A DNA stretch of 64,000 nt from an uncultured Bacteriovorax sp. (GCA_964432565.1 CAYSOA010000004.1:38839-102838), one strand, 5' to 3'. Shown: positions 33,388 through 64,000, counted from the stretch's first letter. Numbers and translations are program-made. The notes: generated by a model not told the origin, from the letters alone.

Positions 33388-33397
33388 GGACTTTGCC

Positions 33398-40718: not shown

Positions 40719-43058
40719 ATGAAGAACCGATCAGCCCTCACTGTTGCCGTGCTCTTTGTTCTCGTTGCGTCCGCACCTTCGTCGTGGAGCGCATCCCCCC
40801 TTCAAGCCCCGCGCGCGGGCATGCTTCCGGAACGCTGGGCCAGCGGCATCAAGCAGGCGTTCGGCACGGCGTACGAAACCTACGATTCTTCAGGTCAGTT
40901 CTCGGCGGCATCATCGACCGCTCCCATCTCCAAGCTTTGGTTTACGGTCGCCCAGGGAATCCTCACCGAAGTGTACTGGCCCCAGCTCGATCAGCCCCAA
41001 ATTCGGGACCTGCAGTTTCTGGTGACCGACGGCCGCAGCTTTCTCTGGGAAGAGCGCCAGGACGGCATCTCCGACGTGCAGTGGATCGAGGCGGGCGTTC
41101 CGGCCTTTCGCATAACCACCCGCGACCTCGCCGGTCGCTTCTTCTTTGAAAAGGTCGTCTATGCCGATCCCGACCGCAACGCCCTGCGCCTGAAGGTACG
41201 TTTCGTTTCAAAGACGCCAGGACTTCAACTCTACCTGCTGAACAATCCCACCGTGGGCGGAACCCCCATGAGCAATCATGCCGTGACTTCGCGCTCGGCG
41301 ATCGCTCCGGGAAAGGGCCTTTACGCGTGGGATGGCAACCAGGCCCAGGCGCTGCTGGCGTCGGTGCCTTTTTCGGCTGCCAGTGCCGCGTTTTCGGGGA
41401 GCCATGACCCGTTTCAGGATCTCCAGCGCGACTTCCGCATGGACCACCAGTACGGAGAAGCGCATGACGGCAATGTCGTCGTCGGCGCCAGGCTGGAACT
41501 GGGGACTGCAGACGAGTTTGAAGTTGCCCTGGGTTTTGGCGGCAGCCTCCTCGACGCAAATCAGGTTGCCGAGGGAAGCCTGTCAGAATCCTTTGAGGCC
41601 GGACTCGACCGCTACCGAAAGCAGTGGCGGGAGTATCAGGGCGGACTCATCGACCTCTCGGCACAATCTCTCGATGGCGGCGATCGTTTTCGTGCCTCGA
41701 CGGCCATGATCAAGTCGATGGAGGACAAGACCTACGCAGGAGCCGTGATCGCCTCACCCTCGATTCCGTGGGGTCTGCACCAGGTGGACTGGAGTCGAAA
41801 CGGTGATCCTCTCTGGAAGCGAGTGGGCGGGTATCACCTGATCTGGCCGCGGGACCTGTACCAGATGGCCACCACTTGGATTGCCGTGGGGGATCTCGCC
41901 TCCGCCAAGGCCTCGTTTGCCCGGCTGAGAACCGCCCAGCTCAGTGATCAGGATGGATTCTGGGAGTACGGATTTCGTCGACGCTCGCGGGACGGCTCTT
42001 TTCTTCAAAACTTCTGGCTGAACGGCTCCGCCTATTGGCAGGGCCTTCAGATGGACGAGACGGCCTTTCCGGTGATCCTCACCTATCGTCTGTGGAAGCT
42101 GGGGGCCGTGACTCTGGCGGACACCTGGGACATGGTTCGTCGGGCCTCCGACTTCATCGTGGATTTCGGCCCCTGGACCGGACAGGAGCGCTGGGAGGAG
42201 AACTTCGGAGCCTCGCCTTCGACCATCGCCTCAGAGATCGCCGCTCTTTATTGCGCGGCCGAAATCGCGCACTCACACGGAGACGACCAAAGGGCCCAGC
42301 GCTATCTGCGCACGGCCGACTCCTGGAGCGCAAAACCAGGAGACAATCTGGAAACCTGGACCTTCACGCGAACCGGTCGCTACGGCGACGGACGCTATTT
42401 CATCCGCTCGGAAGCCGCACAGCGGTTTGACCAGTTCTGGAACCCCGACGACGAGGGCCTGATTCACATTGCCAACGGCGGCCCGACGCTCCGCGAAAAG
42501 GACGTCCTCGACGGGGGTTTCCTCGAACTCGTGCGCCTCGGGGTGCGTGATGCGCTCGACCCCGCCATTCTCGAAACGCTTCCGGAATACGATGCCCACC
42601 TGAGAGTGCGAATTCCCGGAAAGGGCGATGGGTATTATCGCTACACGGCCGACCGCTACAATTATGACGACACGTCAGGGCGCCAGACCCACGGAATGCT
42701 TTGGCCCCTGCTGACCGGCGAGCGCGGGCACTATGCCCTAGCCGCGTCGGTCGCCCGCGGAGAGTCGCGCCCGAAGCGGGACCAGGCCATCGTTCCGTAC
42801 ATTGCCGCCATGGAGGCCTTTGCTTCGTCATCCCTGATGATGCCCGAGCAGGTCTGGGACGGCGGACCCGCAGCCGGCCTCTCGACCGGCTCGGCCACCC
42901 CGTTGGGCTGGAGCCATGCCGAGTACCTCAAGCTGCTGCGCTCCCGGCGCGAAGGCCAGGTCTTCGACCTATTGCCGGACGTCCTGCAGCGATCCCAGGA
43001 ACTGGCAGTGACGCGACGCATCGACGAACTGGGAAGTCCCCAGGGCATCCGCCACTGA
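40719..43058 (+). CDS. secreted glycoside hydrolase family 15 (glucoamylase/glucodextranase-like)
   Basis: A signal peptide precedes an N-terminal beta-sandwich domain and an (alpha/alpha)6 catalytic domain, with IWPRD and ERWEENFG motifs consistent with the GH15 catalytic Glu. Confidence 0.7.
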   Translation: MKNRSALTVAVLFVLVASAPSSWSASPLQAPRAGMLPERWASGIKQAFGTAYETYDSSGQFSAASSTAPISKLWFTVAQGILTEVYWPQLDQPQIRDLQFLVTDGRSFLWEERQDGISDVQWIEAGVPAFRITTRDLAGRFFFEKVVYADPDRNALRLKVRFVSKTPGLQLYLLNNPTVGGTPMSNHAVTSRSAIAPGKGLYAWDGNQAQALLASVPFSAASAAFSGSHDPFQDLQRDFRMDHQYGEAHDGNVVVGARLELGTADEFEVALGFGGSLLDANQVAEGSLSESFEAGLDRYRKQWREYQGGLIDLSAQSLDGGDRFRASTAMIKSMEDKTYAGAVIASPSIPWGLHQVDWSRNGDPLWKRVGGYHLIWPRDLYQMATTWIAVGDLASAKASFARLRTAQLSDQDGFWEYGFRRRSRDGSFLQNFWLNGSAYWQGLQMDETAFPVILTYRLWKLGAVTLADTWDMVRRASDFIVDFGPWTGQERWEENFGASPSTIASEIAALYCAAEIAHSHGDDQRAQRYLRTADSWSAKPGDNLETWTFTRTGRYGDGRYFIRSEAAQRFDQFWNPDDEGLIHIANGGPTLREKDVLDGGFLELVRLGVRDALDPAILETLPEYDAHLRVRIPGKGDGYYRYTADRYNYDDTSGRQTHGMLWPLLTGERGHYALAASVARGESRPKRDQAIVPYIAAMEAFASSSLMMPEQVWDGGPAAGLSTGSATPLGWSHAEYLKLLRSRREGQVFDLLPDVLQRSQELAVTRRIDELGSPQGIRH

Positions 43059-52773: not shown

Positions 52774-52841
52774 CGAGCTGAGCTGAGCCGCTCCAGCCTC
52801 AAGACGAACTGAAAATAACACCATGAATTCAGCGGGTTCCC

Positions 52842-52863
52842 ATACCCGACTCTTTTTGTTTGC
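52842..52863 (+). promoter_or_regulatory. conserved 22-nt upstream element, copy 1 (ATACCCGACTCTTTTTGTTTGC)
   Basis: It is identical to the 22-mer at 61103..61124. Both copies lie 45-49 nt upstream of ATG starts and are followed by similar AT-rich leaders (TTAACwwTTAAGArGGTG). Confidence 0.55.
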
Positions 52864-52911
52864 TTTACTGCACTTTGTAAAGTTATCTTAACTTTAAGAA
52901 AGGTGCTCGCT

Positions 52912-53691
52912 ATGAAACGCTTCCTCCCCCTCGCTGCTGCTGTCATCGTCGTGGGCATCTTTCTCAAAAGCTCACAAAAGGAGCCTTCGGAACCCTCCAC
53001 CACCCCCACCGAGGCGGTTGATCTACCGGTTGCCGACCTCTCCGGCGAGGATCGGCCCTCTCAGACCCGCGAAGTCGGCGAGTCGGAGACCGTTCGACCT
53101 TCGTCGGTTGCTTCAAAAGAGCGCGGGACCGAACCGACCAAGCCTGCGACAAGCAGCATCCCTCCCCGGTCCTCCTGCTGGGCCGCGTCCTTTGAAATCA
53201 CCCGAAGCCTCAGCGCAGCGCAAAGGGAGTCCTTCGGCGAACGCGATCACCTTCTCGATCTCTCGGCCCTTCGCGAGCGGTTTCCCAAGTGGTCTTCGTC
53301 ACGGCTCTGCGTCCGTGCCGAAGGCCATGCTCTCTCCTTCGAGAAGGATTCGAAAAGAAGGGATCACGTCCGCATCCGCGGAGGCTCGGGCAGAATTCGT
53401 CCCGACAGCACCCTGAAGGCGAGCTACTGCTCCGAGAAGGCCATCGACTGCGCCCCCTGCGTCGTGGTCCAGGAGGATTTCGACTCTGCCCTCTTTGGAG
53501 AGTCGGCCGAGGACCAGGCCGAGAACGAAGAGTCGGACATTACCGCACAACTTTCTCCCGAGGTTCAGCGAGAGCTCGCCCGTCTCGAACGCGAAAGGGC
53601 TCCTGCGGCCATTGACCACTGGAAGACCCGTGAGGTCGGCTCGGATTGCACCCCCTCCCCGCGAGTCGCCCAACGTGGAGACCGTCACTGA
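52912..53691 (+). CDS. hypothetical secreted protein, first gene of the Agl/Glt-like cluster
   Basis: There is a signal or anchor helix (MKRFLPLAAAVIVVGIFL) and several Cys residues. Its stop overlaps the next start (TGATG). Confidence 0.5.
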   Translation: MKRFLPLAAAVIVVGIFLKSSQKEPSEPSTTPTEAVDLPVADLSGEDRPSQTREVGESETVRPSSVASKERGTEPTKPATSSIPPRSSCWAASFEITRSLSAAQRESFGERDHLLDLSALRERFPKWSSSRLCVRAEGHALSFEKDSKRRDHVRIRGGSGRIRPDSTLKASYCSEKAIDCAPCVVVQEDFDSALFGESAEDQAENEESDITAQLSPEVQRELARLERERAPAAIDHWKTREVGSDCTPSPRVAQRGDRH

Positions 53692-55391
53692 TGAAGCGCG
53701 CACGCCCACTACGAGTGCTCTCGGGTCTTACCGGAATTCGAAGCCTTGCGCTCGCCGGCAGCTTCGCGCTCCTCTCCCTCTCCGGCTGTACCGAGCAGCT
53801 TCCGGGAAGCTTTCGTTACAAACAGCAGCTCGAAGTCTTTTCGACCAGCCAGGAGGTCAACACCTCCATTGATCTGCTCTGGGTGGTCGACAACTCGGCC
53901 AGCATGGATGTCAGCCAGAAGAAGCTGCGCGATGGATTTTCTGCCTTCGCCCGCGCCTATCTCAAACCCACCTGGGACATCCGTCTGGCCGTGATCACGA
54001 CCGACACCTACCTCGCCCACGCCGCATTCGACGGCTACCTGAATACCGTGATCCCCGGAACCGTCGGCTGGAGGTCGAATCATATCGCCCAGCGTTCGGT
54101 GGATTTCGTCAATCCTGAGCGGATCCCGAACCTTTGGGACAACGCCACGAAGACCTTTCCCAACGGAGTTCGTTATGGCGATATCTCGCCCGTCTGGGGC
54201 TCGAACTGGGCACGACTCATCCCTGGAATTCATGATGGTCCGATGACCACGCTCTGCTCCGAGCTTCTGCCCTACTTTCTCAAGGGCACGTCTCTCTGCT
54301 CCTCGAGAGACCAAATTCTCCCCGCTACGGCCGAAGCAGATGGACTGCGCCCCTGCGTGAGCCCCGATTCCGGAGCTGGAGAATCGAGCGTCACTTCCTG
54401 CATCAATACGACCCAGGTCGACGTCCTGCACACTCAAAGTCCGATCCTCGAAACCCAGCCGCCAACAGGCGTGCCCGCAGATGAGGCGTGGGTGGATGCA
54501 TTGGTTGAAAGGTTTCTCGTCAATGCCAGCGTCGGCAGTTCGGGCCAGGGTTCTGAACGCGGCATCAGCTCGGTACTGCAGCTTCTGGCCGACAACGAGA
54601 GCACCGAAACCCGCTTCTTTCGTCCGGGATCCCTACGCGGCATCCTGTTCATGAGCGATGAGGACGATCAGTCGATGGATCTCTCGCTTGCCACTCCCGG
54701 AACCACCCCACAGACTCACTATCAGTGCGACCAGGAGCGCCTTGCCGAACTCAATCCCGGTGACTCACGGGTGACGACCAGCTGTCCGACCCTCTCCAGT
54801 CGCTGTCCCGAAAAGGTGATCGACGGGTTCAGCTACCGTGTTTCTTACTGTCCGGCAGAGTCCGCCCCCCTGCTGTCGGTCGCCTCTGCAAAACAGCAGC
54901 TCGACACGTTCTTCACCGAGCTGGACGAAGGCACCCAGCCCCAGCCCAATTACTTCGTTGCCGCCATCATCCCCACCTCGGCCGCGGCGATCCAGCAGCT
55001 TCAGGAGGGCCGAGTCAGCGAGGACTCGGCTGTCGGGGCGCTTAAAAACTGGGCCGTCGACCGGGGTGACCGCTACCTCGAACTGGTCGAACGCGTGAAC
55101 AACGGCTCGCTGGCCCTGAATATCGCCGAATCCGACTACACGCCCATTCTCGAAACCATCGGCCGCACGATCGTCTCCAAAAAGGCAACGTTCAAGCTGC
55201 AACGAGAACCCAGCTCACTCGAAGAATTGATGATCTGGGTTCGCCATAACGACGAAACCCGCACGCTGATTTCAGACGAGCAGTTTTCGATCGAAGGAAC
55301 CACGCTCCGGATCACGGACCTTGATCTGGTGCTTTCGCTCGTCTCCACGGATCGGATCGTCATCGACTACCAGCCCAAGAACCTCAAATAA
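53691..55391 (+). CDS. Cys-rich von Willebrand factor A domain lipoprotein (CglB-like candidate adhesin)
   Basis: The lipobox reads LSLSGC and a VWA MIDAS motif is present (LLWVVDNSASM). There are more than 14 Cys residues across the 567 aa. Confidence 0.6.
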   Translation: MKRARPLRVLSGLTGIRSLALAGSFALLSLSGCTEQLPGSFRYKQQLEVFSTSQEVNTSIDLLWVVDNSASMDVSQKKLRDGFSAFARAYLKPTWDIRLAVITTDTYLAHAAFDGYLNTVIPGTVGWRSNHIAQRSVDFVNPERIPNLWDNATKTFPNGVRYGDISPVWGSNWARLIPGIHDGPMTTLCSELLPYFLKGTSLCSSRDQILPATAEADGLRPCVSPDSGAGESSVTSCINTTQVDVLHTQSPILETQPPTGVPADEAWVDALVERFLVNASVGSSGQGSERGISSVLQLLADNESTETRFFRPGSLRGILFMSDEDDQSMDLSLATPGTTPQTHYQCDQERLAELNPGDSRVTTSCPTLSSRCPEKVIDGFSYRVSYCPAESAPLLSVASAKQQLDTFFTELDEGTQPQPNYFVAAIIPTSAAAIQQLQEGRVSEDSAVGALKNWAVDRGDRYLELVERVNNGSLALNIAESDYTPILETIGRTIVSKKATFKLQREPSSLEELMIWVRHNDETRTLISDEQFSIEGTTLRITDLDLVLSLVSTDRIVIDYQPKNLK

Positions 55392-55409
55392 CCAAAAAGG
55401 AGAATGAAC

Positions 55410-56066
55410 ATGGACTTCCTCACCTTCCTCAAAGACCACTGGATGCACGTCGCCCCCATCCTGCTCGCCGCCGCATTTGCCGTAGCCATCGTGATCGAAA
55501 GGTTCCAAACGCTGTACCGAAGCTATCCGATGAAGGACACACACGGCTTCTTCGATCAAATCGGTCGCCACGTCATTGATGGAAACGTCCAGGGGGCCTT
55601 GTCCCACTGCGAGCAACAGGGGCAGAAGCCCGTTGCCGTCGTCGTCAAACAGGCCCTTTTGAGGGCTCAGCAGCCCGAAGCCCTCATCGAGAGCGCTCTC
55701 GAGATCAGCATCCATGAGGCGCAGCAGTCGATTCAAAGGCGAACTGCCTTTCTCTCGACCATCGCCAATGTCGCAACGCTTCTCGGTCTTTTCGGAACGA
55801 TCGCCGGCTTGATCAGTTCGTTTGAGGCAGTCGGTGCTGCCGACCCACAGCAGAAGTCGGCACTCCTTGCTGCCGGCATCTCCACGGCAATGAATGCCAC
55901 GATGATGGGACTTGCCGTTGCGATTCCCTGCATGGTGGCCTTCAGTTTCCTCATGAGCCAGAGCAATCGGGTCATGGCCGAGGTCGAACAAGGCGCAGTT
56001 CGCATCCTCGATCTTCTCAAGCAGCGCTATTATCGGGTGCAGAGCGAAGTTCGGGAGGCCGCATGA
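55410..56066 (+). CDS. MotA/TolQ/ExbB-family proton channel (AglR-like)
   Basis: It has 3 TM segments and the ExbB/TolQ signature region (LSTIANVATLLGLFGTIAGLISSF...AMNATMMGLAVAIP). Confidence 0.8.
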   Translation: MDFLTFLKDHWMHVAPILLAAAFAVAIVIERFQTLYRSYPMKDTHGFFDQIGRHVIDGNVQGALSHCEQQGQKPVAVVVKQALLRAQQPEALIESALEISIHEAQQSIQRRTAFLSTIANVATLLGLFGTIAGLISSFEAVGAADPQQKSALLAAGISTAMNATMMGLAVAIPCMVAFSFLMSQSNRVMAEVEQGAVRILDLLKQRYYRVQSEVREAA

Positions 56067-56515
56067 TGTCGCCCGGTTCAGGAAGCGATGGTCAGGACTT
56101 CGAACTGAACCTCGCAAGCATCATCGACTGTCTCACGGTCATCATCGCCTTCCTCCTGCTTTCATCCTCCTTCGTGTCCTATGGGGCACTCGACACGGCC
56201 GTCGCCGCACCACAGAGTTCCCAAACAGCGGACGGAAGCGAGGAACGACCCCAGAGCCTCACCTTGTCGGTGAAAATTCTGGAGGACGACCGGGTGGAGC
56301 TCGAGATCTCAGGAAAGCGAACTGAAAAGAGAAGGATCGCCCGGGACTCGCTTCGCACCGAACTACAGGCTCTGAAGGCGAAATATCCGGGTTTAGAGGG
56401 AATGGTTCTCTCAGCCGGCCCTCGCCTGCCTTACCGAGAGGTGATTCGAGGCATGGACGAGGCACGCACGATTTTTCCGGCAGTAGCGCTGGGCCTTTCG
56501 GGAGGTCGACAATGA
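56063..56515 (+). CDS. ExbD/TolR-family protein (AglQ/S-like), copy 1
   Basis: It has a single TM with the conserved Asp (LASIIDCLTVIIAFLL) and a 4-nt overlap with the upstream gene. Confidence 0.75.
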   Translation: MMSPGSGSDGQDFELNLASIIDCLTVIIAFLLLSSSFVSYGALDTAVAAPQSSQTADGSEERPQSLTLSVKILEDDRVELEISGKRTEKRRIARDSLRTELQALKAKYPGLEGMVLSAGPRLPYREVIRGMDEARTIFPAVALGLSGGRQ

Positions 56516-56973
56516 AGCGATTTCTGAAGAAGAAGAATAAGCCGCAGTCGACCGAAATGAGCCTGCAGATCACATCGATGGCCGATATCTTTACGATCCT
56601 GCTGGTCTTCCTCTTGAAATCGTATTCGGTCGGCGCCCTCGAAGTGCAACCGAGTCGTGGGCTCGAGCTGCCTGTCGCCCAGAGATCGGATACAGCCGAA
56701 TCCAGAATCGCGCTGGAAGTCTCCGAAAACTCGGTTCAGCTCGATGGCACTCCCGTTCTTCCCCTGAAACACTTCGAGCTTGAAGGTGCAACGCGCCTCG
56801 AGCCGTTGGGAAGGGCGCTTTCGGAGAAACTTGCCGCCCTCGGAGAGGCATCTCAGGGCAAGTTGATTCTGGTTGCGGATGCCCGAGTCCCCTTCGAGAC
56901 GCTCGAAACTCTGATGGCGACGGCCGCAGGTCAGGGCTTCTCAGACCTCAAGCTGGCGGTGGTGCAGCCATGA
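56512..56973 (+). CDS. ExbD/TolR-family protein (AglQ/S-like), copy 2
   Basis: It has a TM with the conserved Asp (MADIFTILLVFLL) and its start overlaps the upstream stop. Confidence 0.75.
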   Translation: MKRFLKKKNKPQSTEMSLQITSMADIFTILLVFLLKSYSVGALEVQPSRGLELPVAQRSDTAESRIALEVSENSVQLDGTPVLPLKHFELEGATRLEPLGRALSEKLAALGEASQGKLILVADARVPFETLETLMATAAGQGFSDLKLAVVQP

Positions 56974-59861
56974 CGCATCCCACGCTCCTGAGGCTGGTCC
57001 TCAGCCTGAGCCTCTGCCTGATTCTCTCGCCCATCAGTGTGTGCGCAGGCTCCAGCGACGAGATGACGCTTCGAAACGTTTCGAATGCGGAACGCGAAAA
57101 AATCGATCGGCTCGTCGATCGAGCCGCCCTCGAATCTCAGAGGCGAGCCATCGAGCAGATCGAAACACTCTTGACGCGCTACCGGAACACGGACCGTGAA
57201 GAGATGCTTCTCGCAAAACTGGGCGACCTGCGACAACAACGCGCCCAGATCGAGTTTCGCCTCGGCCAGCACAGCCGCGATGAGTCCTCCTATCGAAGGT
57301 CACTCTCCGAAGCGATTCGCACGTTCGACGAGGTGCTACGCCGTTTTCCAGAATCCGAACAGGTACCCCGGGTTCTTTCGTGGCGCGCCAGGGCCCATGC
57401 CGACCTCACGGCGCACGCCCTGGCCGAGAAGGATTTCGTCCGTCTGATCCAAAAATACCCCGAGTCTCCGGAGTCTGAATCCGCCCGAATGGCGCTTGCC
57501 GGCTATGCCGCCGAACGGGGCGATCACGCACGCGCCCTCGCCGTGCTCACGCCCCTGGCCTCACGGCCGGAATCCCCATTTCATCCTTTCGCCCTGCACC
57601 AAATGGCCTGGGCGGCGTTCAATCGCGAAGACATTCCCTCGGCGATCGATTATGCGCGCCGAAACGTCGAAGCCCTTCGCCACAGAAGGCAGGAGAGCCG
57701 ACTGAGCTCGAGTGATGAGGCCCTTCTTGAAAACACCCTGCTCGACGTTGCCACCTTCGAGGCGGATCGTGTCGAAAAGATGGCCAATCCGCCCTCGGCC
57801 CAGGAGATTTTCAAAACATTTCAGTCGCTATCCCCCGGTTCACGGATGCCCGCCATGGCGCTTCGCCTGGCCAAGCTGCTGCGCGCACATGATCAGTCGC
57901 GGCTTCTTGCCCAGTGGGGCGCGCTTGCCTGGCAGCACCTTCCCGAGTCCGGCGCCAGTGCAGAAATCGACCTCCTGCTTCGAGAATATGCCCATGGTCG
58001 CCGCGACTTCGTAACGCTTCTTGCGCCGCTTCCCGAGGTGGCTCGAACCGCGAAGAATTCCGCACTCGAGGGCCATCGCAGGCTATATTCGAAGGTCGCG
58101 ACCGAGCTTCACGAGCTTCTATCGAGGAATTCCGGCGCCTCGGTAGAAAAATCCAAACCATGGATTGAAAGGCTGGGGGCCGCCTATGAGCGTTTTCTCG
58201 AGATCACTCCGGCTTCGGATCCCAGAAACTTTCAGGCACGCCTGAATCTCGCCGAGGCATTCGTGGCCCTGAATGAGCTCGATCGTGCCATTCCGCTGTA
58301 TCGAGCCATCGTTGACTCTCAGGAATGGAGCAATGCCGCCGTGATCCGATCGAGCCTCGGATCGATTCGCTCTCGCCTCGAAAAGCTGAAGCAGGAAGGC
58401 GTCATGCCTGAGAAGATCACCCTGGCGGCCTTCGATCGGGAGCTCGACTCCGACCCGCGCATCCTCGAGCTTCTGGCATGGATCGACATGCATCTCTCAC
58501 ACGACAAGAACGGCGAATTCATCACGATGCTGCGCTTCGAGCGAGCCAAGATCCTCTATCGACTCGGACGACGATCAGAATCCCATCTCGCACTCGAGTC
58601 GGTCATCGACACCGCCCCAGACTCAACGGACGCCGGCGGGGCCCTCGCCCTGCTGCTGGACAGTGAGTTCTTTTCGGGTGACCTGCCGTCCCTGAAAAAA
58701 AGAATCGGGGAGCTCCAGAGAAGGCGCGCCCTCTCGTCAAACGCAAGCGCCACCCAGATAATCACTCAGGCAACCCTTCGCCTCGATGTTCTGCTCATGA
58801 ACCACACAGTCGATCCAGGAAACGCCCGCCTTGCGCGCGATCGCCTGCTGGCACGCGGGGACGCTCCGCAGGAGGTTCGAGACGCCGCACTCATCGATCG
58901 GGCACGAGAGCTGGACCTGAACGGAAATCCTGCCAATGCACTGGAGATGCTTCAAAAGGCCTCAAATCCGGAATCACGGGCGCCCGCCCTGCTTCTTCTT
59001 GCCTATGCCTCTGAGAACTGGACGGCCCTTTCTGAAATCTTGCGAACGCAGTGTGATCCGAAGGTGTCGATCTGCGCCCAGTTTTCGCAGTGGATGCGCT
59101 CACGCAATGCACCGAGGACCTCAAATCTCGTCGCTGAGCTGCGCAGGATTTCGAAATCTACCGGAACCGAACAATTGCTCTCCGTGCTGCCACTGCTGAC
59201 CCACCAGAAGAAGTTGGGCTATCGCGATCGCAACCTGTTGATTCGGCTGTCATCAAAGGGCTGGAACGACCTTCTTCCGATCATCCAGTGGGAAGCGCTT
59301 GCGCCGGCCATTGAGGGACTCGAAGCGGCACTCCAGAGCAGCCGTGAGCAGATCCGCCGTCAGTCGCCGCTGAGTGCCACCCAGAAAAGCGAGGCCCACC
59401 TCGTTCATCGAATGGATGTGATTCGGGAATTCGAAAACACGATCAGAGCAGCCCTGCAGATTCCGATTTTTGAGATTCAGGTTTCAGCGCTCCAGCAGCA
59501 CGCCGCCGCCATGCAGGACTTCAGCGAGGACATCGGCCGAATCGAAAACCTGCCCGCAGCAGTCCGATCGGAGATCGAAGCTCGTGCAAGCGAACTACGC
59601 CAGATTGCTGATCAACGCTCGTCCGCGCTGGCTCAGTCGGTCGCCGCGGGAGAGGCATTCATCGCCGGCAACCCGCAGCTCACCACGACGATGCCGATCA
59701 GCAGGGCCCGCAAACGGTGGTTCTTCGAAAACGCCGCAACGCTTTCTGAAACGCAGCAGGCGCTTTGGCTGGGTTGGATTCTCTGGAATTCGGGCGCGAA
59801 GCATGCCGCCTCCAGCGAGTGGGAGAAAGTGAAGCCGACGGTCACAGCGGCCAATCAGTGA
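56970..59861 (+). CDS. large secreted tetratricopeptide-repeat protein (963 aa; GltD/GltE-like candidate)
   Basis: A signal peptide is followed by degenerate 34-aa helical repeats (A..Y....G....A) throughout. Its start overlaps the ExbD stop (ATGA). Confidence 0.65.
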   Translation: MTHPTLLRLVLSLSLCLILSPISVCAGSSDEMTLRNVSNAEREKIDRLVDRAALESQRRAIEQIETLLTRYRNTDREEMLLAKLGDLRQQRAQIEFRLGQHSRDESSYRRSLSEAIRTFDEVLRRFPESEQVPRVLSWRARAHADLTAHALAEKDFVRLIQKYPESPESESARMALAGYAAERGDHARALAVLTPLASRPESPFHPFALHQMAWAAFNREDIPSAIDYARRNVEALRHRRQESRLSSSDEALLENTLLDVATFEADRVEKMANPPSAQEIFKTFQSLSPGSRMPAMALRLAKLLRAHDQSRLLAQWGALAWQHLPESGASAEIDLLLREYAHGRRDFVTLLAPLPEVARTAKNSALEGHRRLYSKVATELHELLSRNSGASVEKSKPWIERLGAAYERFLEITPASDPRNFQARLNLAEAFVALNELDRAIPLYRAIVDSQEWSNAAVIRSSLGSIRSRLEKLKQEGVMPEKITLAAFDRELDSDPRILELLAWIDMHLSHDKNGEFITMLRFERAKILYRLGRRSESHLALESVIDTAPDSTDAGGALALLLDSEFFSGDLPSLKKRIGELQRRRALSSNASATQIITQATLRLDVLLMNHTVDPGNARLARDRLLARGDAPQEVRDAALIDRARELDLNGNPANALEMLQKASNPESRAPALLLLAYASENWTALSEILRTQCDPKVSICAQFSQWMRSRNAPRTSNLVAELRRISKSTGTEQLLSVLPLLTHQKKLGYRDRNLLIRLSSKGWNDLLPIIQWEALAPAIEGLEAALQSSREQIRRQSPLSATQKSEAHLVHRMDVIREFENTIRAALQIPIFEIQVSALQQHAAAMQDFSEDIGRIENLPAAVRSEIEARASELRQIADQRSSALAQSVAAGEAFIAGNPQLTTTMPISRARKRWFFENAATLSETQQALWLGWILWNSGAKHAASSEWEKVKPTVTAANQ

Positions 59862-59928
59862 CAGAAGCGAAATCGCATCACTGCCGCGGCTCTTGATTTT
59901 CGGATGGGCAGTTGAGACGACAGACAGC

Positions 59929-61053
59929 ATGAAGCCCAGTCAGCTCTGGATCCTATTGGCCGTCGCCATCGTCAGTCCATCCGGCGACGCCGCGAATTCA
60001 GTCAGACCTCATCACGCTCAGGGCACACGCACCGCTCACTGGTCACCCGAGACTCGGGCACTTCACGAAAAGCTGAAATCCATTCAGGGAAAGGCGCTTC
60101 TCTTTGGCCACCAGAACGCCACCTGGGAAGGCAGCTTTGGCTGGCATGACAGTCAGCCCGAGGGCACCTACGCGTCGGATGTTCTGACTGTCAGCGGCGA
60201 CTACCCCGCTGTTTACGGCTGGGATCTACTGGACCTTTCAGATGACCTACGACGGCATATCGTCGCTGCACATGAACGGGGCGGCGTGAATACGATCAGC
60301 TGGCACATGCCCAACCCGGTTACCGGGGGATCCTACTCCGACACCACCCGCGCTCTGGGAACCATTCTGCCGGGTGGGCCACACCATCTCGCCTTCCGGT
60401 CGCTGCTGGATCGGGCGGGCGCCTTTCTGGATTCGCTTCGCGACTCGCGCGGCCGCAGAATTCCGATCATTTTTCGCCCCTTTCACGAGCACAATGGCTA
60501 TTGGTTCTGGTGGTGCCTGAAGCACGGAAGCGCGGACGACTTCGCCGCAGTGTTTCGGTACACCGTCGACTATCTCGTCAAAGAGTGGAACCTCGACTCC
60601 CTGTTGATCGCCTACTCACCCGACGCGACTCCGGTCTGGCAGTTTTTTCGCCCCTTCGAGGGATACCCGGGGGATGACCTGATCGATGTGGTGGGACTCG
60701 ACATGTACGGTGACGTGGGGCGTGACACGCTGGGATTCATCAACCGATCAGCGGTTCGCAGAAAAGTTCGCCAGATCACCTCGTTCGCCAACGCCCGAAA
60801 CAAGCTCGCCGCGATCACCGAGACAGGACTTGAAGGAATCACCGACAAGAACTGGTGGACCCGGCTGGTCCTCGACACGCTCGACACATCCTCGCTCAGC
60901 TACCTCATGGTCTGGCGAAATGCTCACGAGAGATCGTCGCATTTCTATGCGCCGAAGCCCGGTCACCCCTCGACACCCGACTTTCTCAAAATGAAGGCGA
61001 GCGGAAAGGTGTGGTTTAATCGAGACTTGGCCTCTTCGGTGAGCCCCCCTTGA
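59929..61053 (+). CDS. secreted glycoside hydrolase family 26 (beta-mannanase-like)
   Basis: A signal peptide precedes the GH26 motifs WHMPNP, FRPFHEHNGYWFWW (acid/base Glu) and AITETG (nucleophile Glu). Confidence 0.75.
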   Translation: MKPSQLWILLAVAIVSPSGDAANSVRPHHAQGTRTAHWSPETRALHEKLKSIQGKALLFGHQNATWEGSFGWHDSQPEGTYASDVLTVSGDYPAVYGWDLLDLSDDLRRHIVAAHERGGVNTISWHMPNPVTGGSYSDTTRALGTILPGGPHHLAFRSLLDRAGAFLDSLRDSRGRRIPIIFRPFHEHNGYWFWWCLKHGSADDFAAVFRYTVDYLVKEWNLDSLLIAYSPDATPVWQFFRPFEGYPGDDLIDVVGLDMYGDVGRDTLGFINRSAVRRKVRQITSFANARNKLAAITETGLEGITDKNWWTRLVLDTLDTSSLSYLMVWRNAHERSSHFYAPKPGHPSTPDFLKMKASGKVWFNRDLASSVSPP

Positions 61054-61102
61054 ACTGGCCACCCGAGTTCTTCAATCTCATCAGGCAGTTAGCCTAACCC
61101 CA

Positions 61103-61124
61103 ATACCCGACTCTTTTTGTTTGC
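61103..61124 (+). promoter_or_regulatory. conserved 22-nt upstream element, copy 2
   Basis: It is identical to the 22-mer at 52842..52863 and lies 45 nt upstream of the ATG at 61169. Confidence 0.55.
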
Positions 61125-61168
61125 AAAGCCTCTTTTTGTTAGTTTTAATTAACAATTAAGAGGTGACC

Positions 61169-61438
61169 ATGCTTTCTTCTCTCACCCCGACGATTCTAGT
61201 TCTGGCACTGATCCTCTCCCCTCAGGCGGTTGCCGGCTCGCGAGAAAAGGTCATCGATTTCGAGGACGCAGTGGTCGAGGGCGTCAACCGAAAGCCCTAC
61301 GACTCCCTGCAGGCCCTGTCTGAAAAGGAGCGCCGCAGTCGCCGCGCGCACCTCTACCATCGACGACTCAGCTTTCAGTCCGAAATTGAAGAAACCCTTC
61401 GCGAACGTGCACTCGAGCACGAAGGAGGCGGATCATGA
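61169..61438 (+). CDS. small secreted protein (hypothetical)
   Basis: A signal peptide (LTPTILVLALILSPQAVAG) is followed by a charged region. Its stop overlaps the next start (ATGA). Confidence 0.45.
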   Translation: MLSSLTPTILVLALILSPQAVAGSREKVIDFEDAVVEGVNRKPYDSLQALSEKERRSRRAHLYHRRLSFQSEIEETLRERALEHEGGGS

Positions 61439-62502
61439 ACGCTTCGCCCGATCGCCCTCTGATCGTTCGCATCCACGCTGCCGGAGGAACCCTCAGTGAA
61501 CTGTGGGATACGAATACCCCCCTATCCGTCGGTCACCCCCTCCGATGGGTGCTCGAATTCCTCAAAACGCCGGAGCGGCTGCGACTCACGGACACGCGCT
61601 CGTCCCTGCGCGTCGAGCAGGCCGTCACCGGAAGTGCCTCCGCCGGAGACGGCCTGCTCGCCGAATTTCCGCTAGGAACATCAGGACGAATCGCGATCTA
61701 TCGCGAAAACGCGGCGGGCTTTTCGAGCGTCACGACCAATGAAGAGCTGGGCTCGAGCCTCCACGAAACCCAGTTTCGCAGATCGGCGATTCGCAGCGTC
61801 GCACTCCTGGGTGCGGCCCTCCTCATCCTTCCCCTGATTCGCCCGGGCAGTCGCGAGCTCATCACCCGCGCCCCCGTTCAGGTCGTCGACCTCTCGAAGT
61901 TGGCCCAGGCTGCGGCAAAACCCAAGGCAAGGGGCGGCTCCGGTGGCGTGGCATCCAGGCTGCGAGCACTCGTCTCCGGTTCGCGCTCCCGCTGGCTTTC
62001 TCGATCTCCCGCCAGCACCCTGTCAGGACGATTCAGTGAAAAATACGCGGCCAACTTCGGCAATATGGCGTCCGCCCCCTCGCTGGGCCTTTCTGCTCTC
62101 GGAAAGTCCGGCTACTCGGGCTCGCTCGGAAGCGCTGGCTCGAGCGGCGGCACGGCGGGACGCAACTGGGTCGACCTCGACTCTCTTGCCGCCACCGTCG
62201 AGGAGGGCCTGACCCGAGACGAGGTGGGTCAGGTGATCCATAAGCACATGAAGGAGATTCGCTACTGCTACGAAACAGCCATGATTCGCTCGCCGGATCT
62301 CGAAGGAAAGCTCGTCGTCGAGTTCACGATCGGCCGTCAGGGTGCCGTCCGAAGCTCGGGAGTACGCACCTCCAGTGTTCCGGACCAGCGACTCGACGAC
62401 TGCGTTCTTTCACGCCTCGTGGCCTGGAAGTTCCCGCAACCCAAGGGCGGAATTGAAGTCGCCGTCACCTACCCGTTCATCTTCAAATCACTCGGGAAAT
62501 GA
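61435..62502 (+). CDS. bitopic membrane protein with a TonB-C-terminal-like domain (GltG/GltJ- or AgmX-like)
   Basis: A cytoplasmic N-domain and a TM helix (AIRSVALLGAALLILPLI) are followed by a Gly/Ser linker. The C-terminal ~90 aa (YCYETAMIRSPDLEGKLVVEFTIGRQGAV...DDCVLSRLVAWKFPQP...YPFIF) is TonB_C-like. Confidence 0.6.
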   Translation: MNASPDRPLIVRIHAAGGTLSELWDTNTPLSVGHPLRWVLEFLKTPERLRLTDTRSSLRVEQAVTGSASAGDGLLAEFPLGTSGRIAIYRENAAGFSSVTTNEELGSSLHETQFRRSAIRSVALLGAALLILPLIRPGSRELITRAPVQVVDLSKLAQAAAKPKARGGSGGVASRLRALVSGSRSRWLSRSPASTLSGRFSEKYAANFGNMASAPSLGLSALGKSGYSGSLGSAGSSGGTAGRNWVDLDSLAATVEEGLTRDEVGQVIHKHMKEIRYCYETAMIRSPDLEGKLVVEFTIGRQGAVRSSGVRTSSVPDQRLDDCVLSRLVAWKFPQPKGGIEVAVTYPFIFKSLGK

Positions 62503-63275
62503 CCATGATGAATACCGCTCTCAGCATCAAAATGGCCCTACTGCTCACACTAGTGATACCCGCCGTTCCGGCCTTGGGCGACGAGCCCCCCCCCACGGGA
62601 ACGCCAGAAACAAGCCACGAAGACCTCTCACCCGAAGCAGAGGAGCTCGAACGCATCAAGCAGCGCTACTGGGCGCAGGGAAACGAAAAAGAAATGGGCG
62701 TCGTCCAGAATCGCCTCTTCACCAAGGAAGGGCGTTTCGAAACCACGCTTTTCGGTGGCCTCCTCATCTCCGATCCATTCGTCAATACGTTCACGCCGGG
62801 GCTCTCGTTCGGCTACAACTTCGATGAAACCTTCTCGCTGCATGCCTTCGGATGGAAGGCTCTCGCCACACCATCGGCCGCCCTCGTCACGCTTCGGCAG
62901 GGGGAAAAGGAAGCCAATACCAATCCCACGTCCGCACTTTTCGGGACCGAGGGCCGTGCCAGCCTGCTCTATGGCAAGCTCAGTCTGCTCGGCAGGAAGA
63001 TACTGTACTACGACATGCACGCAGGCCTGGGCGCTGCCATCGTTCGCGCCGAGAACGGACTCTACGGTGGCCCCCTGATATCGGTCGGACAAAGTTTCTT
63101 TTTTTCGAACTCCATGACCTTTCGCATCGATTACCGGCTGATCGTCTACCGGGAGAACATCACCCAGAAAGAAGGGACCGAGGAGCAGCTCGGAAGGATC
63201 ATCGACCAGAGAAACAATTTTTCGAATTCCCTGACCTTCGGGATCAGCATCCTTTTTGGAGGATCGAATCGATGA
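62499..63275 (+). CDS. outer-membrane beta-barrel protein (GltA/B/H-like candidate)
   Basis: A signal peptide is followed by alternating beta-strand pattern with aromatic girdle residues (FGYNF, LLYGKLSL, TFGISILFGG). The gene is coupled to its neighbours by ATGA overlaps. Confidence 0.55.
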   Translation: MTMMNTALSIKMALLLTLVIPAVPALGDEPPPTGTPETSHEDLSPEAEELERIKQRYWAQGNEKEMGVVQNRLFTKEGRFETTLFGGLLISDPFVNTFTPGLSFGYNFDETFSLHAFGWKALATPSAALVTLRQGEKEANTNPTSALFGTEGRASLLYGKLSLLGRKILYYDMHAGLGAAIVRAENGLYGGPLISVGQSFFFSNSMTFRIDYRLIVYRENITQKEGTEEQLGRIIDQRNNFSNSLTFGISILFGGSNR

Positions 63276-64000
63276 ACACCAAGAATGCACGAGCATCCCT
63301 GATCGTTCTCTCGCTGCTGCTCGCCCCCCGGTCCTTCGCCGGCATCGACTGCCGTCGAGACGTTCCCACTCGATCCCCGGCCATCGACCTCGCCCTGGGG
63401 CTACAGTCTCGCCTCAGGGCGACATCACCCTCGGACCGAAAGTCGGCTGAACTTCAGATCGCAAATGCCCTGCACCAGTCCGGAATCATACGCCCTGCTC
63501 ACGCAGCCTATCGAGCGATACTCCGCTCAAACGAAGCGGCACCCACCGACCGTCTCTCGGCCATGACCTGCCTGAACCGCATCGAGCGAGTCGAGCCTGC
63601 CCTGGCGATGGAACTCCCTTTGACGTTTCTCACGTCCGTCGCCTCGCTCTCATCGACCGATGGCGAGCATCAGAGTGAGGGCGCGGAGTTCGTTTTTCGC
63701 CGGTTTCTGATCGCCCTGCGCGATGACACCAGAAGGGCTACTGCAATCCAAGCCCTGCTTGCCGAACGATTCGCCGCTCGTGCAGAGACCCAGGCGGGCC
63801 GCGCCTTTCTTCTGGCCAACGAAAAGAAGCCCATCGAAGCGGCGAAACTGCTGGAAGAGCTGCTTTCGAAACCTCGGCTGCCGGAAGGAGCCGAACGCCA
63901 CCGAAACGCCCTGATGCTGCTGGCAGGACGAACCGCCTTCGCAGGCGGACGCCCGCTCGATGCGGCTCGCTGGTACCGTTCGATCGAAAAGTCCTCGAAC
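63272..64000 (+). CDS. secreted TPR-like helical repeat protein, 5' fragment (continues past the window end)
   Basis: I translated from the ATG at 63272 and the frame is open to base 64000. A signal peptide (LIVLSLLLAPRSFAG) is followed by an Ala/Leu-rich helical repeat region. Confidence 0.5.
   Translation, partial: MNTKNARASLIVLSLLLAPRSFAGIDCRRDVPTRSPAIDLALGLQSRLRATSPSDRKSAELQIANALHQSGIIRPAHAAYRAILRSNEAAPTDRLSAMTCLNRIERVEPALAMELPLTFLTSVASLSSTDGEHQSEGAEFVFRRFLIALRDDTRRATAIQALLAERFAARAETQAGRAFLLANEKKPIEAAKLLEELLSKPRLPEGAERHRNALMLLAGRTAFAGGRPLDAARWYRSIEKSSN

What the first reader, a model, noticed from the sequence alone, without database searches (positions are those of the whole stretch)
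52842..64000. Compact Agl-Glt-like (gliding/Tol-Ton-type) trans-envelope machine cluster
Eleven co-directional, mostly translationally coupled genes make up this region. They encode:
- a secreted protein
- a Cys-rich VWA lipoprotein
- MotA/TolQ/ExbB and two ExbD/TolR paralogs
- a 963-aa periplasmic TPR protein
- a TM protein with a TonB-C-like domain
- an outer-membrane beta-barrel and another TPR-like secreted protein

This component list does not match a canonical TonB or Tol-Pal system. There is no TolA/TolB/Pal and no Pro-rich TonB, and there are two ExbD copies plus giant TPR proteins. It does match the myxobacterial/Bdellovibrio Agl motor (AglRQS) and Glt focal-adhesion proteins, including a CglB-like VWA adhesin. 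If that is right, the window holds a complete minimal gliding-type surface machine in a single locus.
Basis: partly seen in the sequence, partly recalled or inferred. Interest (0 to 1): 0.75.

Follow-up and report, generated by a model that had tools for sequence, protein, structure and literature searches.

The report
Bdellovibrio-type Agl-Glt gliding machine cluster
This stretch encodes a proton-driven machine spanning both cell membranes, of the kind that powers gliding in Myxococcus and is already catalogued in Bdellovibrio, here with a built-in integrin-like surface adhesin; it is a good example of a known kind, not a new one.

Summary
The gene block is real and the Agl-Glt reading is largely right. 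Window 52912-64000 holds 11 co-directional genes, most with ATGA start/stop overlaps.

- Curated models link four of them to Myxococcus gliding proteins: GltG (E 1.8e-36; tail domain 107 bits against a cut-off of 40), the GltA/B-type barrel (70.5 against 60), GltF/CglF (5 of 5 family members) and GltC (full-length orthologues).
- The order (MotA/TolQ-like, two ExbD-like, large TPR, GltF, GltG, barrel, GltC) equals that of three B. bacteriovorus clusters tabulated in 2011.
- A predicted structure shows the TonB-C protein to be FHA, membrane helix, disordered linker, TonB C-terminal fold: a short GltG.
- The VWA lipoprotein is integrin-beta-like. By sequence it resembles CglD and Bdellovibrio MIDAS adhesins, not CglB.

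Corrections:
- One gene is a GH26 glycosidase, an insertion seen only in this organism.
- The window cuts the GltC-like gene; relatives add a GYF-domain gene after it.
- GltE, H, I, J, K were not detected, so "complete" is overstated.
- A conserved promoter module precedes two sub-operons.

The block recurs in 38 Bdellovibrionota loci (18 colinear through GltC, 18 up to a contig end, 2 rearranged). Gliding is inferred, not shown. AglRQS and GltD orthology was not tested directly. Verdict: new member of a known kind.

The parts
52842..52863 (+). Promoter-module box 1 (ATACCCGACTCTTTTTGTTTGC), 49 nt upstream of the g1 start
   Evidence: An identical 22-mer occurs only twice in the window, with 0 expected by chance. 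A roughly 70-nt module is conserved upstream of g1 and of g7b across species. It has an ACCYGACT box, a -35-like TTGTTT, a TGT-extended -10 and a TTAAC. Related pattern hits in the fetched loci are only at these positions. A terminator-like hairpin at 52833-52848 overlaps it.
52912..53691 (+). g1: 259-aa protein with an N-terminal hydrophobic anchor, a low-complexity linker and a C-terminal domain with 6 Cys; no known family; always paired with g2
   Evidence: Weakly conserved partners sit upstream of g2 in 14 loci (median 28% identity) and stay next to g2 in the rearranged loci.
53691..55391 (+). g2: 566-aa outer-membrane-type lipoprotein, an integrin-beta-like VWA/MIDAS domain set within a beta-rich domain; candidate surface adhesin
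   Evidence: - Invariant C33 at the end of the signal peptide in 32/32 homologues.
- D67-x-S69-x-S71 and eight further conserved Cys.
- AlphaFold2 model with pLDDT 86.5.
- NCBIfam MIDAS adhesin model hit by 32/32 and the CglD model by 31/32.
55404..56066 (+). g3: MotA/TolQ/ExbB-family proton channel, taken as the AglR counterpart
   Evidence: Pfam PF01618, E 1.2e-27. Below the TolQ cut-off (77 of 221 bits) and the ExbB cut-off (54 of 206 bits). Closer to solved TolQ (55 bits) than to solved ExbB (41-44 bits). Three hydrophobic segments.
56063..56515 (+). g4: ExbD/TolR-family stator subunit, first paralogue (AglQ/AglS-like)
   Evidence: PF02472, E 3.5e-13. Membrane-helix Asp at D22, read from the sequence. 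ATGA overlaps on both sides.
56512..56973 (+). g5: ExbD/TolR-family stator subunit, second and highly divergent paralogue
   Evidence: PF02472, E 5.3e-13. Membrane-helix Asp at D25. No BLASTP similarity to g4.
56970..59861 (+). g6: 963-aa periplasmic TPR scaffold in the GltD position
   Evidence: TPR and CpoB/YbgF-like module. The family has 231 representatives at E<=1e-30, mostly 1000-1250 aa. It holds the same position as the GltD homologues Bd0417, Bd1478 and Bd2374. Direct GltD homology was not shown.
59929..61053 (+). g7: secreted GH26 glycoside hydrolase; a lineage-specific passenger at the junction of the two transcription units, not part of the machine
   Evidence: PF02156, E 3e-36. 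Present only in the window and in L001, a contig carrying identical copies of g6-g9 and so most likely the same organism. Absent from all other syntenic loci, where other unrelated genes occupy this junction. The longest ORF starts at TTG 59893; the probable start is ATG 59929.
61103..61124 (+). Promoter-module box 2, identical 22-mer, 45 nt upstream of the g7b start
61169..61438 (+). g7b: 89-aa secreted protein, GltF/CglF-like
   Evidence: NCBIfam gliding_CglF is matched by 5/5 family members (best E 3e-5; the window copy scores E 0.02). CglF is GltF (PMC4488436). It holds the same position as Bd1477. The conserved motif is KVIDFED..VEG.N.RP.DS.
61435..62502 (+). g8: short GltG-type force transducer (cytoplasmic FHA fold, one membrane helix, disordered Ser/Gly/Ala-rich linker, AgmX/PglI-type TonB C-terminal domain)
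62499..63275 (+). g9: small outer-membrane beta-barrel of the GltA/GltB type
   Evidence: TIGR04565 OMP_myx_plus, 70.5 bits against a cut-off of 60. Signal peptide. Same position as Bd0414, Bd1475 and Bd2370.
63272..64000 (+). g10: N-terminal 243 aa of a GltC-like periplasmic TPR protein, cut by the window end
   Evidence: 51% identical to the first 239 aa of the 572-aa L002 orthologue. Full-length orthologues match gliding_GltC at E 4e-6 and 8.8e-16.

Best explanation
The region encodes an Agl-Glt-type trans-envelope machine driven by the proton-motive force. It is the Bdellovibrionota subtype, which Luciano et al. 2011 called the 'expanded core complex'.

**Organisation.** There are two co-regulated transcription units.
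- TU1: g1, the g2 adhesin lipoprotein, the AglR-like channel, two AglQ/S-like subunits and the GltD-like scaffold. In this organism a GH26 passenger follows.
- TU2: GltF-like, GltG-like, GltA/B-like barrel and GltC-like genes. In relatives a cytoplasmic GYF-domain protein follows.

**Shown here**
- Homology of four Glt parts.
- The FHA, membrane helix, linker, TonB-C-terminal-domain architecture of g8.
- The lipoprotein and integrin-beta-like VWA nature of g2.
- Conserved synteny.
- The shared promoter module.

**Inferred from the Myxococcus model (PMC11761067, PMC9946355)**
1. A TolQ-like pentamer with the two ExbD-like subunits, each keeping its membrane-helix Asp, converts proton flow into movement.
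2. The GltG-like protein couples to the motor through its membrane helix. Its linker crosses the peptidoglycan and binds the GltD-like scaffold.
3. GltF and GltC bridge to the outer-membrane barrel.
4. The barrel holds the MIDAS lipoprotein at the cell surface, where it binds the substratum or a prey cell.
5. Motor movement is thereby turned into gliding or adhesin transport.
For: - Curated-model matches: GltG E 1.8e-36, AgmX/PglI tail above its cut-off, and OMP_myx_plus above its cut-off. GltC for full-length orthologues. CglF/GltF in 5/5 family members.
- Gene order is identical to B. bacteriovorus Bd0420-0413, Bd1481-1474 and Bd2377-2369, as classified in Luciano 2011 Table S3.
- The g8 fold is FHA plus a TonB C-terminal domain.
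- g2 is a lipoprotein with an integrin-beta-like VWA/MIDAS fold. It resembles the gliding adhesin CglD and Bdellovibrio MIDAS adhesins.
- There is one MotA/TolQ-like gene plus two divergent ExbD-like genes.
- Synteny holds in 18 loci through g10, in 18 more up to a contig end, and in 2 rearranged loci, all in Bdellovibrionota assemblies.
- The same promoter module sits upstream of both units.
Against: - No motility data exist for any member of this block. Nearly all carriers are uncultured.
- AglRQS orthology was not tested by phylogeny, because no reference sequences were obtainable here.
- GltD assignment rests on position, size and TPR content only.
- The GltG equivalog cut-off is not met (126 of 650 bits).
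- GltE, H, I, J, K and AglZ were not detected.
- Glt-like paralogues in Myxococcus serve sporulation (Nfs), and the core complex occurs in non-gliders (PMC3169522).
- Some genomes carry two copies.
- Surface exposure of g2 is assumed, not shown.
Confidence: 0.75

Rival explanations
1. It is a Glt-like machine with a function other than locomotion. It could move or deploy a surface cargo or polymer, as the Myxococcus Nfs system does for the spore coat, or act in prey attachment or invasion.
For: - Luciano 2011 reports a core complex in non-gliding bacteria and non-redundant Glt-like paralogues in Myxococcus.
- Several genomes here carry two copies of the block.
- The related Bdellovibrio MIDAS adhesin Bd0875 acts in prey invasion (PMC11003981).
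Against: - An in-operon MIDAS adhesin fits adhesion-coupled movement.
- Bdellovibrio is a proven glider with clusters in the same order.
- Sequence alone cannot separate gliding from adhesin transport.
Confidence: 0.2
2. It is an ordinary TonB-ExbBD energy-transducing system that serves TonB-dependent outer-membrane receptors.
For: Pfam ExbB, ExbD and TonB_C domains are present.
Against: - g3 scores 54 bits against an ExbB cut-off of 206, and it is closer to TolQ.
- The g8 tail scores 107 bits on AgmX/PglI but only 29-33 bits on the TonB models. It also carries an FHA domain and has no Pro-rich region.
- No TonB-dependent receptor is in the block in any locus. The barrel is a 258-aa OMP_myx_plus protein.
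Confidence: 0.02
3. It is a divergent Tol-Pal-like envelope-integrity or cell-division system.
For: g3 is most similar to TolQ. g6 and its whole family carry a CpoB/YbgF-like TPR module.
Against: - The TolQ score (77 of 221 bits) and the TolR score (23 of 127 bits) fall below the cut-offs.
- No TolA, TolB or Pal is in the block.
- Four specific Glt matches are present.
- There are two ExbD paralogues and an adhesin.
Confidence: 0.02
4. g2 is one of the recently proposed inner-membrane-tethered vWA 'force transducers' that dock directly on TolQR-like motors (PMC12204202).
For: g2 lies immediately upstream of the motor genes and has a VWA fold.
Against: In all 32 homologues the hydrophobic N-terminus ends in an invariant Cys followed by the conserved CTGQLPGSFR segment. 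That is a lipoprotein signal, not a retained membrane helix with a conserved His; only 6 of the 32 have any His in the first 40 residues, and there is no conserved one. The block already has a GltG-type transducer.
Confidence: 0.01

Closest known systems
Bdellovibrio bacteriovorus HD100 Agl-Glt-like clusters Bd0413-0420, Bd1474-1481 and Bd2369-2377 ('expanded core complex', Luciano et al. 2011, PMC3169522)
   Same: The order and approximate sizes match:
- AglR-like (220-250 aa)
- two TolR-like proteins (about 150-185 aa)
- GltD-like (about 990-1240 aa)
- optional GltF-like (82 aa)
- short GltG-like (376-488 aa)
- one GltB-like barrel (about 235-254 aa)
- GltC-like

GltH, I, J and K are absent in both.
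   Different: - The sequences could not be compared directly.
- The window block also carries the conserved g1-g2 adhesin pair upstream and a GH26 insertion. Its relatives carry a GYF-domain gene downstream.
- Whether HD100 has g1/g2 counterparts next to its clusters was not checked. The MIDAS lipoprotein Bd1483 lies two locus tags from Bd1481; this is an inference from numbering only.
Myxococcus xanthus Agl-Glt focal-adhesion gliding machinery (AglRQS, GltA-K, CglB, CglD)
   Same: - A TolQ/TolR-type motor with two TolR-like subunits.
- A GltG-type transducer (FHA, membrane helix, linker, TonB C-terminal domain).
- A large TPR scaffold, and GltF.
- An OMP_myx_plus barrel, and GltC.
- A VWA/MIDAS outer-membrane lipoprotein adhesin stabilised by disulfides.
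   Different: - Everything is in one locus instead of three or more.
- There is one barrel instead of GltA, GltB and GltH.
- No GltE, GltI, GltJ, GltK or AglZ was detected.
- GltG has one FHA domain and 355 aa, against 650 aa.
- The adhesin is encoded in the operon. It is integrin-beta-like and resembles the CglD VWA region, not the alpha-I-like CglB.
- The GYF module is a separate small protein in relatives, not part of GltJ.
Bdellovibrio MIDAS-family lipoprotein adhesins Bd0875 and Bd1483 (PMC11003981; NCBIfam NF052240)
   Same: A lipobox, and a MIDAS/VWA domain inserted in a beta-rich domain formed by the N- and C-terminal parts. All 32 members of the g2 family match the model in the MIDAS region.
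   Different: - g2 is about 190 aa longer, with Cys-bridged insertions.
- It scores 33 bits against a cut-off of 700.
- It is much more conserved across the phylum.
- It is tied to the motor operon. The short MIDAS genes in L071-L073 are not next to any Agl-Glt gene.
Ancestral 'core complex' (aglRQS, gltD, gltE, gltG, gltC) of Gammaproteobacteria, Betaproteobacteria, Geobacter and Fibrobacter
   Same: It shares the motor, GltD, GltG and GltC genes in a single locus. Its function is untested.
   Different: The window block has the delta-type additions (GltF and a GltA/B-type barrel), lacks GltE, and follows the Bdellovibrio order rather than, for example, the Geobacter order.

Membership tests
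Agl-Glt machinery (Bdellovibrionota / expanded core complex type) | One MotA/TolQ/ExbB-family channel plus two divergent ExbD/TolR paralogues in tandem (AglR, AglQ, AglS) | tested here: met
   Pfam PF01618 and two PF02472 hits. The paralogues are not alignable by BLASTP. Both keep the membrane-helix Asp, D22 and D25.
Agl-Glt machinery (Bdellovibrionota / expanded core complex type) | Motor proteins group phylogenetically with AglRQS rather than with TolQR or ExbBD | not tested
   No AglR, AglQ or AglS reference sequences or models were available. The only data are that g3 is closer to TolQ than to ExbB and falls below both equivalog cut-offs.
Agl-Glt machinery (Bdellovibrionota / expanded core complex type) | GltG-type transducer: cytoplasmic FHA domain, one membrane helix, long linker, AgmX/PglI TonB-like C-terminal domain | tested here: met
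Agl-Glt machinery (Bdellovibrionota / expanded core complex type) | GltD-type large periplasmic TPR scaffold | tested here: inconclusive
   A 963-aa TPR protein sits in the GltD position. No GltD model exists in NCBIfam, and no GltD-named relatives were recovered.
Agl-Glt machinery (Bdellovibrionota / expanded core complex type) | GltF/CglF small periplasmic protein | tested here: met
   NF033764 is matched by 5/5 family members, best E 3e-5. The window copy alone is weak (E 0.02, below the cut-off).
Agl-Glt machinery (Bdellovibrionota / expanded core complex type) | GltA/GltB-type outer-membrane barrel (OMP_myx_plus) | tested here: met
   TIGR04565 at 70.5 bits against a cut-off of 60.
Agl-Glt machinery (Bdellovibrionota / expanded core complex type) | GltC periplasmic TPR connector next to the barrel gene | tested here: met
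   Orthologues match NF033756 at E 4e-6 and 8.8e-16. The truncated window copy is 51% identical to the L002 orthologue. All scores are below the equivalog cut-off.
Myxococcus-type complete gliding apparatus | GltE, GltH, GltI, GltJ, GltK and AglZ present | tested here: not met
   No gene in the block or in syntenic loci matches these. The GltJ model is hit only by the shared tail domain of g8. B. bacteriovorus likewise lacks GltH, I, J and K.
CglB adhesin family | Sequence similarity to CglB; alpha-I-like VWA domain with an N-terminal jellyroll/propeller; about 4% Cys | tested here: not met
   No CglB match was found in NCBIfam for any of the 32 members. Whether NCBIfam holds a CglB model is not known to me, and no CglB sequence was available to compare directly. 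The matches found are to CglD and to the Bdellovibrio MIDAS adhesin model. The best folds are integrin beta subunits. Cys content is 1.6%. The functional analogy (lipoprotein VWA/MIDAS adhesin) still stands.
TonB-ExbB-ExbD system | ExbB and ExbD equivalogs, a Pro-rich TonB, and partner TonB-dependent receptors | tested here: not met
   ExbB scores 54 of 206 bits. The ExbD_2 model scores 20 of 123 bits for g4, and g5 has no NCBIfam hit. The g8 linker is Ser/Gly/Ala-rich. No receptor gene is present in any locus.
Tol-Pal system | TolQ and TolR equivalogs together with TolA, TolB and Pal | tested here: not met
   TolQ scores 77 of 221 bits and TolR 23 of 127 bits. No TolA, TolB or Pal is in the block.
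Inner-membrane-tethered vWA force transducers (PMC12204202) | Retained N-terminal membrane helix with a conserved motor-binding His, followed by a vWA domain | tested here: not met
   All 32 homologues have a signal peptide that ends in an invariant lipobox Cys, and there is no conserved His.

The most novel reading that the evidence does not exclude
The g1-g2 pair is wired to the Agl-Glt-like operon by gene order and by a shared promoter module. g1 is a Cys-containing membrane-anchored partner and g2 is a highly conserved integrin-beta-like MIDAS lipoprotein. On the most novel reading, this pair is the so far unidentified surface adhesin module of Bdellovibrionota gliding or prey-surface movement. 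The stand-alone GYF-domain protein at the end of the block in relatives would then replace the cytoplasmic GYF module of Myxococcus GltJ as the link to polarity or second-messenger control.
Probability: 0.35. Interest if true: 0.55.

Novelty: new member of a known kind. Interest (0 to 1): 0.38.

Why it matters
[quoted passage not shown] This block does not reveal a new kind of machine. It does give a compact, single-locus version of the Agl-Glt system. In it a strongly conserved adhesin candidate (median 47% identity across the phylum, second only to the motor channel) is genetically tied to the motor. Two promoters share one conserved control element. That makes a clear, testable target list for anyone who can culture a carrier. 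It also shows which Myxococcus parts (GltE, H, I, J, K) may be dispensable in a minimal version.

Tried and rejected
- **Exact look-up of g9** found nothing. The g8 look-up gave only a 5-kb contig, so the DNA downstream of the window had to be inferred from relatives.
- **PDB sequence search with g2** gave no hit.
- **Word-index homologue search with g6** returned only 12 proteins and no names.
  - The exhaustive profile search found a large family.
  - Cluster names were only 'TPR', 'YbgF family' or 'TolA-binding'.
  - No member matched a GltD model in NCBIfam.
  - GltD orthology therefore stays positional.
- **Rfam scan of the region** gave only a spurious sub-threshold IRES match. The conserved upstream module is not a known RNA element.
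- **Generic sigma-70 and terminator scans** were not above chance. The promoter reading comes from the cross-species alignment instead.
- **Presence outside Bdellovibrionota** was considered and rejected. One of the two 'proteobacterial' labels, 'Methylotenera', belongs to an assembly also titled Oligoflexia. The 'Xanthomonadaceae' label of L005 is unverified.
- **Other readings considered and rejected:** TonB, Tol-Pal, Bat-type and tethered-vWA (see rival explanations).

Full report
**1. Observation**

The + strand from 52912 to the window end carries eleven co-directional genes.

| Gene | Coordinates | Product |
|---|---|---|
| g1 | 52912-53691 | anchored protein with 6 Cys |
| g2 | 53691-55391 | VWA/MIDAS lipoprotein |
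| g3 | 55404-56066 | MotA/TolQ/ExbB family |
| g4 | 56063-56515 | ExbD family |
| g5 | 56512-56973 | ExbD family |
| g6 | 56970-59861 | 963-aa TPR protein |
| g7 | 59929-61053 | GH26 glycosidase |
| g7b | 61169-61438 | 89-aa secreted protein |
| g8 | 61435-62502 | one membrane helix, TonB-C-like end |
| g9 | 62499-63275 | outer-membrane barrel |
| g10 | 63272 to beyond 64000 | TPR-like, truncated |

- Six junctions are ATGA overlaps. g1/g2 is TGATG. g2/g3 is a 12-nt gap with an AAGGAG ribosome-binding site.
- Upstream genes encode 2-oxoglutarate dehydrogenase, lipoamide dehydrogenase, two amino-acid transporters and a haem-dependent demethylase-like protein. They are unrelated.
- Base composition is uniform across the block.
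Three points need amending. It left out the GH26 gene and the 89-aa gene. g1 looks membrane-anchored rather than freely secreted. The last gene is cut by the window end.

**2. What the parts are**

*Pfam and NCBIfam assignments*
- g3 is MotA_ExbB (E 1.2e-27).
- g4 and g5 are ExbD (about 4e-13 each).
- g6 has TPR repeats plus a CpoB/YbgF-like module.
- g7 is GH26 (3e-36).

*g8*
- It matches the Myxococcus GltG model over its last 146 residues (E 1.8e-36).
- It passes the AgmX/PglI C-terminal domain model (107 bits against a cut-off of 40). It scores only 29-33 bits on the TonB models.
- An AlphaFold2 model built on 32 homologues shows four parts: a confident N-terminal beta-sandwich (residues 9-89), a membrane helix (108-134), a disordered Ser/Gly/Ala-rich linker, and a confident C-terminal domain.
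- This is the domain order described for Myxococcus GltG (PMC11761067), in a shorter form.

*The other Glt-like genes*
- g9 passes TIGR04565, the barrel domain family that includes GltA and GltB (70.5 bits against 60).
- The g7b family matches the CglF model in 5 of 5 members, best E 3e-5. CglF is GltF (PMC4488436).
- Full-length orthologues of g10 match the GltC model at E 4e-6 and 8.8e-16. The window fragment is 51% identical to the first 239 residues of one of them.

**3. The VWA lipoprotein (g2)**

- g2 has about 210 detectable relatives, all unnamed and without Pfam domains. Most are 45-50% identical over the full length.
- In 32 aligned members the signal peptide always ends in a Cys, followed by a conserved CTGQLPGSFR segment.
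- The MIDAS DxSxS (D67, S69, S71) and eight more Cys are conserved.
- The AlphaFold2 model is confident (pLDDT 86.5, pTM 0.85).
- By sequence, all 32 members match the Bdellovibrio MIDAS adhesin model (best 4.6e-13). 31 match the VWA region of Myxococcus CglD (best 6.6e-9). None matches a CglB model.
- CglD has itself been described as a beta-integrin-like gliding lipoprotein (bioRxiv 10.1101/2023.10.19.562135).
- So g2 is a plausible surface adhesin, closer to CglD and Bd0875/Bd1483 than to CglB.
- It is not one of the inner-membrane-tethered vWA transducers of PMC12204202. It has a lipoprotein signal and no conserved His-bearing helix.

**4. Synteny and distribution**

- A scan of one genome per species with the g2 alignment gave 67 loci. 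All are from assemblies labelled Bdellovibrionota, Bdellovibrionia, Bacteriovoracia or Oligoflexia (a few titled only 'bacterium' or 'Deltaproteobacteria bacterium'). Nearly all are metagenome-assembled; two are the isolates FG-1 and FG-2.
- BLASTP mapping of the window proteins onto all ORFs of these loci gave these counts.

| Arrangement | Loci |
|---|---|
| g2-g3-g4-g5-g6-g7b-g8-g9-g10, colinear | 18 |
| same order until the contig ends | 18 |
| rearranged, g3 to g10 first and then g1-g2 (L052, L055; L040 has the same layout but its locus begins within g5, so the script counted it in the last row) | 2 |
| first unit only | 6 |
| g2 alone, truncated, or a short MIDAS gene | 23 |

- At least four of the genomes represented carry two full-length copies of g2.
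- Median identity to the window is highest for g3 (61%). g8 scores 51%, but this comes from local alignments that often cover only its conserved tail domain. g7b scores 49% and g2 47%. g6 (29%), g10 (29%) and g1 (28%) are lowest.
- GH26 occurs only in the window and in L001. L001 is a contig carrying identical copies of g6-g9, so it is most likely the same organism.
- In other genomes the same junction holds kinase and transporter genes (L002), glycogen genes (L006) or other unrelated ORFs.
- Two assemblies carried proteobacterial labels in one source. The 'Methylotenera' one is titled Oligoflexia elsewhere, so I do not claim presence outside Bdellovibrionota.

**5. Beyond the window**

- In relatives the GltC-like gene is 572-614 aa long.
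- It is followed by a 138-197-aa protein without a signal peptide. Its N-terminus matches GYF_2 weakly but consistently (5 of 5, best E 9.6e-6).
- In Myxococcus a GYF domain is part of the cytoplasmic portion of GltJ.

**6. Regulation**

- An identical 22-mer lies 49 nt upstream of g1 (52842-52863) and 45 nt upstream of g7b (61103-61124). It occurs nowhere else in the window, and 0 occurrences are expected by chance.
- Alignment with the equivalent upstream regions of four relatives shows a conserved module of about 70 nt:
  - an ACCYGACT box;
  - a -35-like TTGTTT;
  - a 17-nt spacer ending in TGT;
  - a TATATT-like -10;
  - a TTAAC before the ribosome-binding site.
- The degenerate pattern hits only these two positions per locus.
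- I read this as two co-regulated transcription units, with a candidate regulator site at the ACCYGACT box. This is inference; no transcript data exist.
- No Rfam family matches.

**7. Comparison with known systems**

- Luciano et al. 2011 (PMC3169522) defined the Agl-Glt genes and an ancestral core (aglRQS, gltD, E, G, C). They noted four expanded sets in B. bacteriovorus.
- Their Table S3 lists Bd0420-0413, Bd1481-1474 and Bd2377-2369 in exactly the window's order and with similar sizes. They include an 82-aa GltF homologue and short (376-488 aa) GltG homologues, and have no GltH, I, J or K.
- The window block is therefore another member of this known Bdellovibrio-type cluster.
- It is not a TonB system. 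ExbB scores 54 of 206 bits, no receptor gene is present, and the tail domain of g8 is of the AgmX/PglI type.
- It is not a Tol-Pal system. TolQ scores 77 of 221 bits, TolR scores 23 of 127 bits, and TolA, TolB and Pal are absent.

**8. Mechanism**

*Shown:* the homologies, folds, synteny and promoter module described above.

*Inferred from the Myxococcus structural model:*
1. A TolQ-like pentamer works with two ExbD-like subunits. Both keep the membrane-helix Asp (D22 and D25).
2. This motor drives the GltG-like transducer.
3. The GltG linker crosses the peptidoglycan to the GltD-like scaffold.
4. GltF and GltC connect the scaffold to the barrel.
5. The barrel presents the MIDAS lipoprotein at the surface.

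Whether the output is gliding, adhesin transport or a step in prey entry cannot be decided from sequence.

**9. Limits**

- I could not obtain AglR, AglQ, AglS, GltD, CglB or HD100 sequences. Motor phylogeny, GltD orthology and direct CglB comparison are therefore untested.
- All equivalog cut-offs for GltG, GltC and CglF are missed. These are family-level homologues, not orthologues of the Myxococcus proteins.

**10. Verdict**

- The Agl-Glt interpretation is largely right. 'CglB-like' and 'complete' are overstated.
- It is a new member of a known kind.
- The under-described accessories are worth noting: the g1-g2 adhesin pair, the GYF protein and the shared promoter module. Interest is moderate.

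Noticed in passing
window 52842-52863 and 61103-61124; also L007 1022-1040 and 9643-9661; L009 4302-4320 and 14313-14331; L002 9640-9658: An identical 22-mer lies within a conserved upstream module of about 70 nt, in front of both g1 and g7b in several species. The module has an ACCYGACT box, a -35-like TTGTTT, a TGT-extended -10 and a TTAAC. It looks like a shared promoter with a regulator site. The regulator is unknown.
   Followed up: partly
window 59929-61053 (g6/g7b junction): A secreted GH26 glycosidase is inserted between the two transcription units, in this organism only. The same junction carries different unrelated genes in relatives: kinases and an MFS transporter in L002, five glycogen or maltose genes in L006, and small toxin-antitoxin-like ORFs in L019. 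It appears to be a recurrent insertion point.
   Followed up: partly
L002 13508-13924; L005 13695-14288; L006 14129-14635; L018 20794-21282; L052 8410-8910: Just beyond where the window ends, relatives encode a conserved cytoplasmic protein. It has a weak GYF_2-like N-terminus and a beta-rich C-terminal domain of unknown family. This recalls the GYF module of Myxococcus GltJ.
   Followed up: partly
L040, L052, L055: In these loci the block is rearranged: motor to GltC, then the GYF gene, then g1-g2. The g1-g2 pair stays together, which suggests the two proteins work as a unit.
   Followed up: no
L004 and L046 (assembly GCA_014378465.1); P0367: The same assembly is labelled 'Methylotenera sp.' in one source and 'Oligoflexia bacterium' in another. 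The 'Xanthomonadaceae' label of L005 may be equally unreliable, because its block is as similar to the window as those of Bdellovibrionota.
   Followed up: partly
window 36028-40216, minus strand: A chemosensory gene set: a CheA with Hpt and CheW domains, CheR, and a CheB with a receiver domain. It lies about 13 kb upstream of the cluster. No link to the cluster was examined.
   Followed up: no
window 24659-33450: Several long ORFs have no Pfam match at E<=1e-5 (298, 641, 287, 474 and 634 aa). It is not clear whether they are real genes.
   Followed up: no
window 40719-43058: A glucodextranase/GH15 gene lies next to the sucA-sucB-lpd operon. Together with the GH26 gene, this hints at polysaccharide use by the organism.
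   Followed up: no
L071-L073: Short (318-360 aa) MIDAS proteins in Bdellovibrio-labelled assemblies resemble g2 only around the MIDAS motif and are not next to any Agl-Glt gene. They are probably the Bd0875-type adhesins.
   Followed up: no
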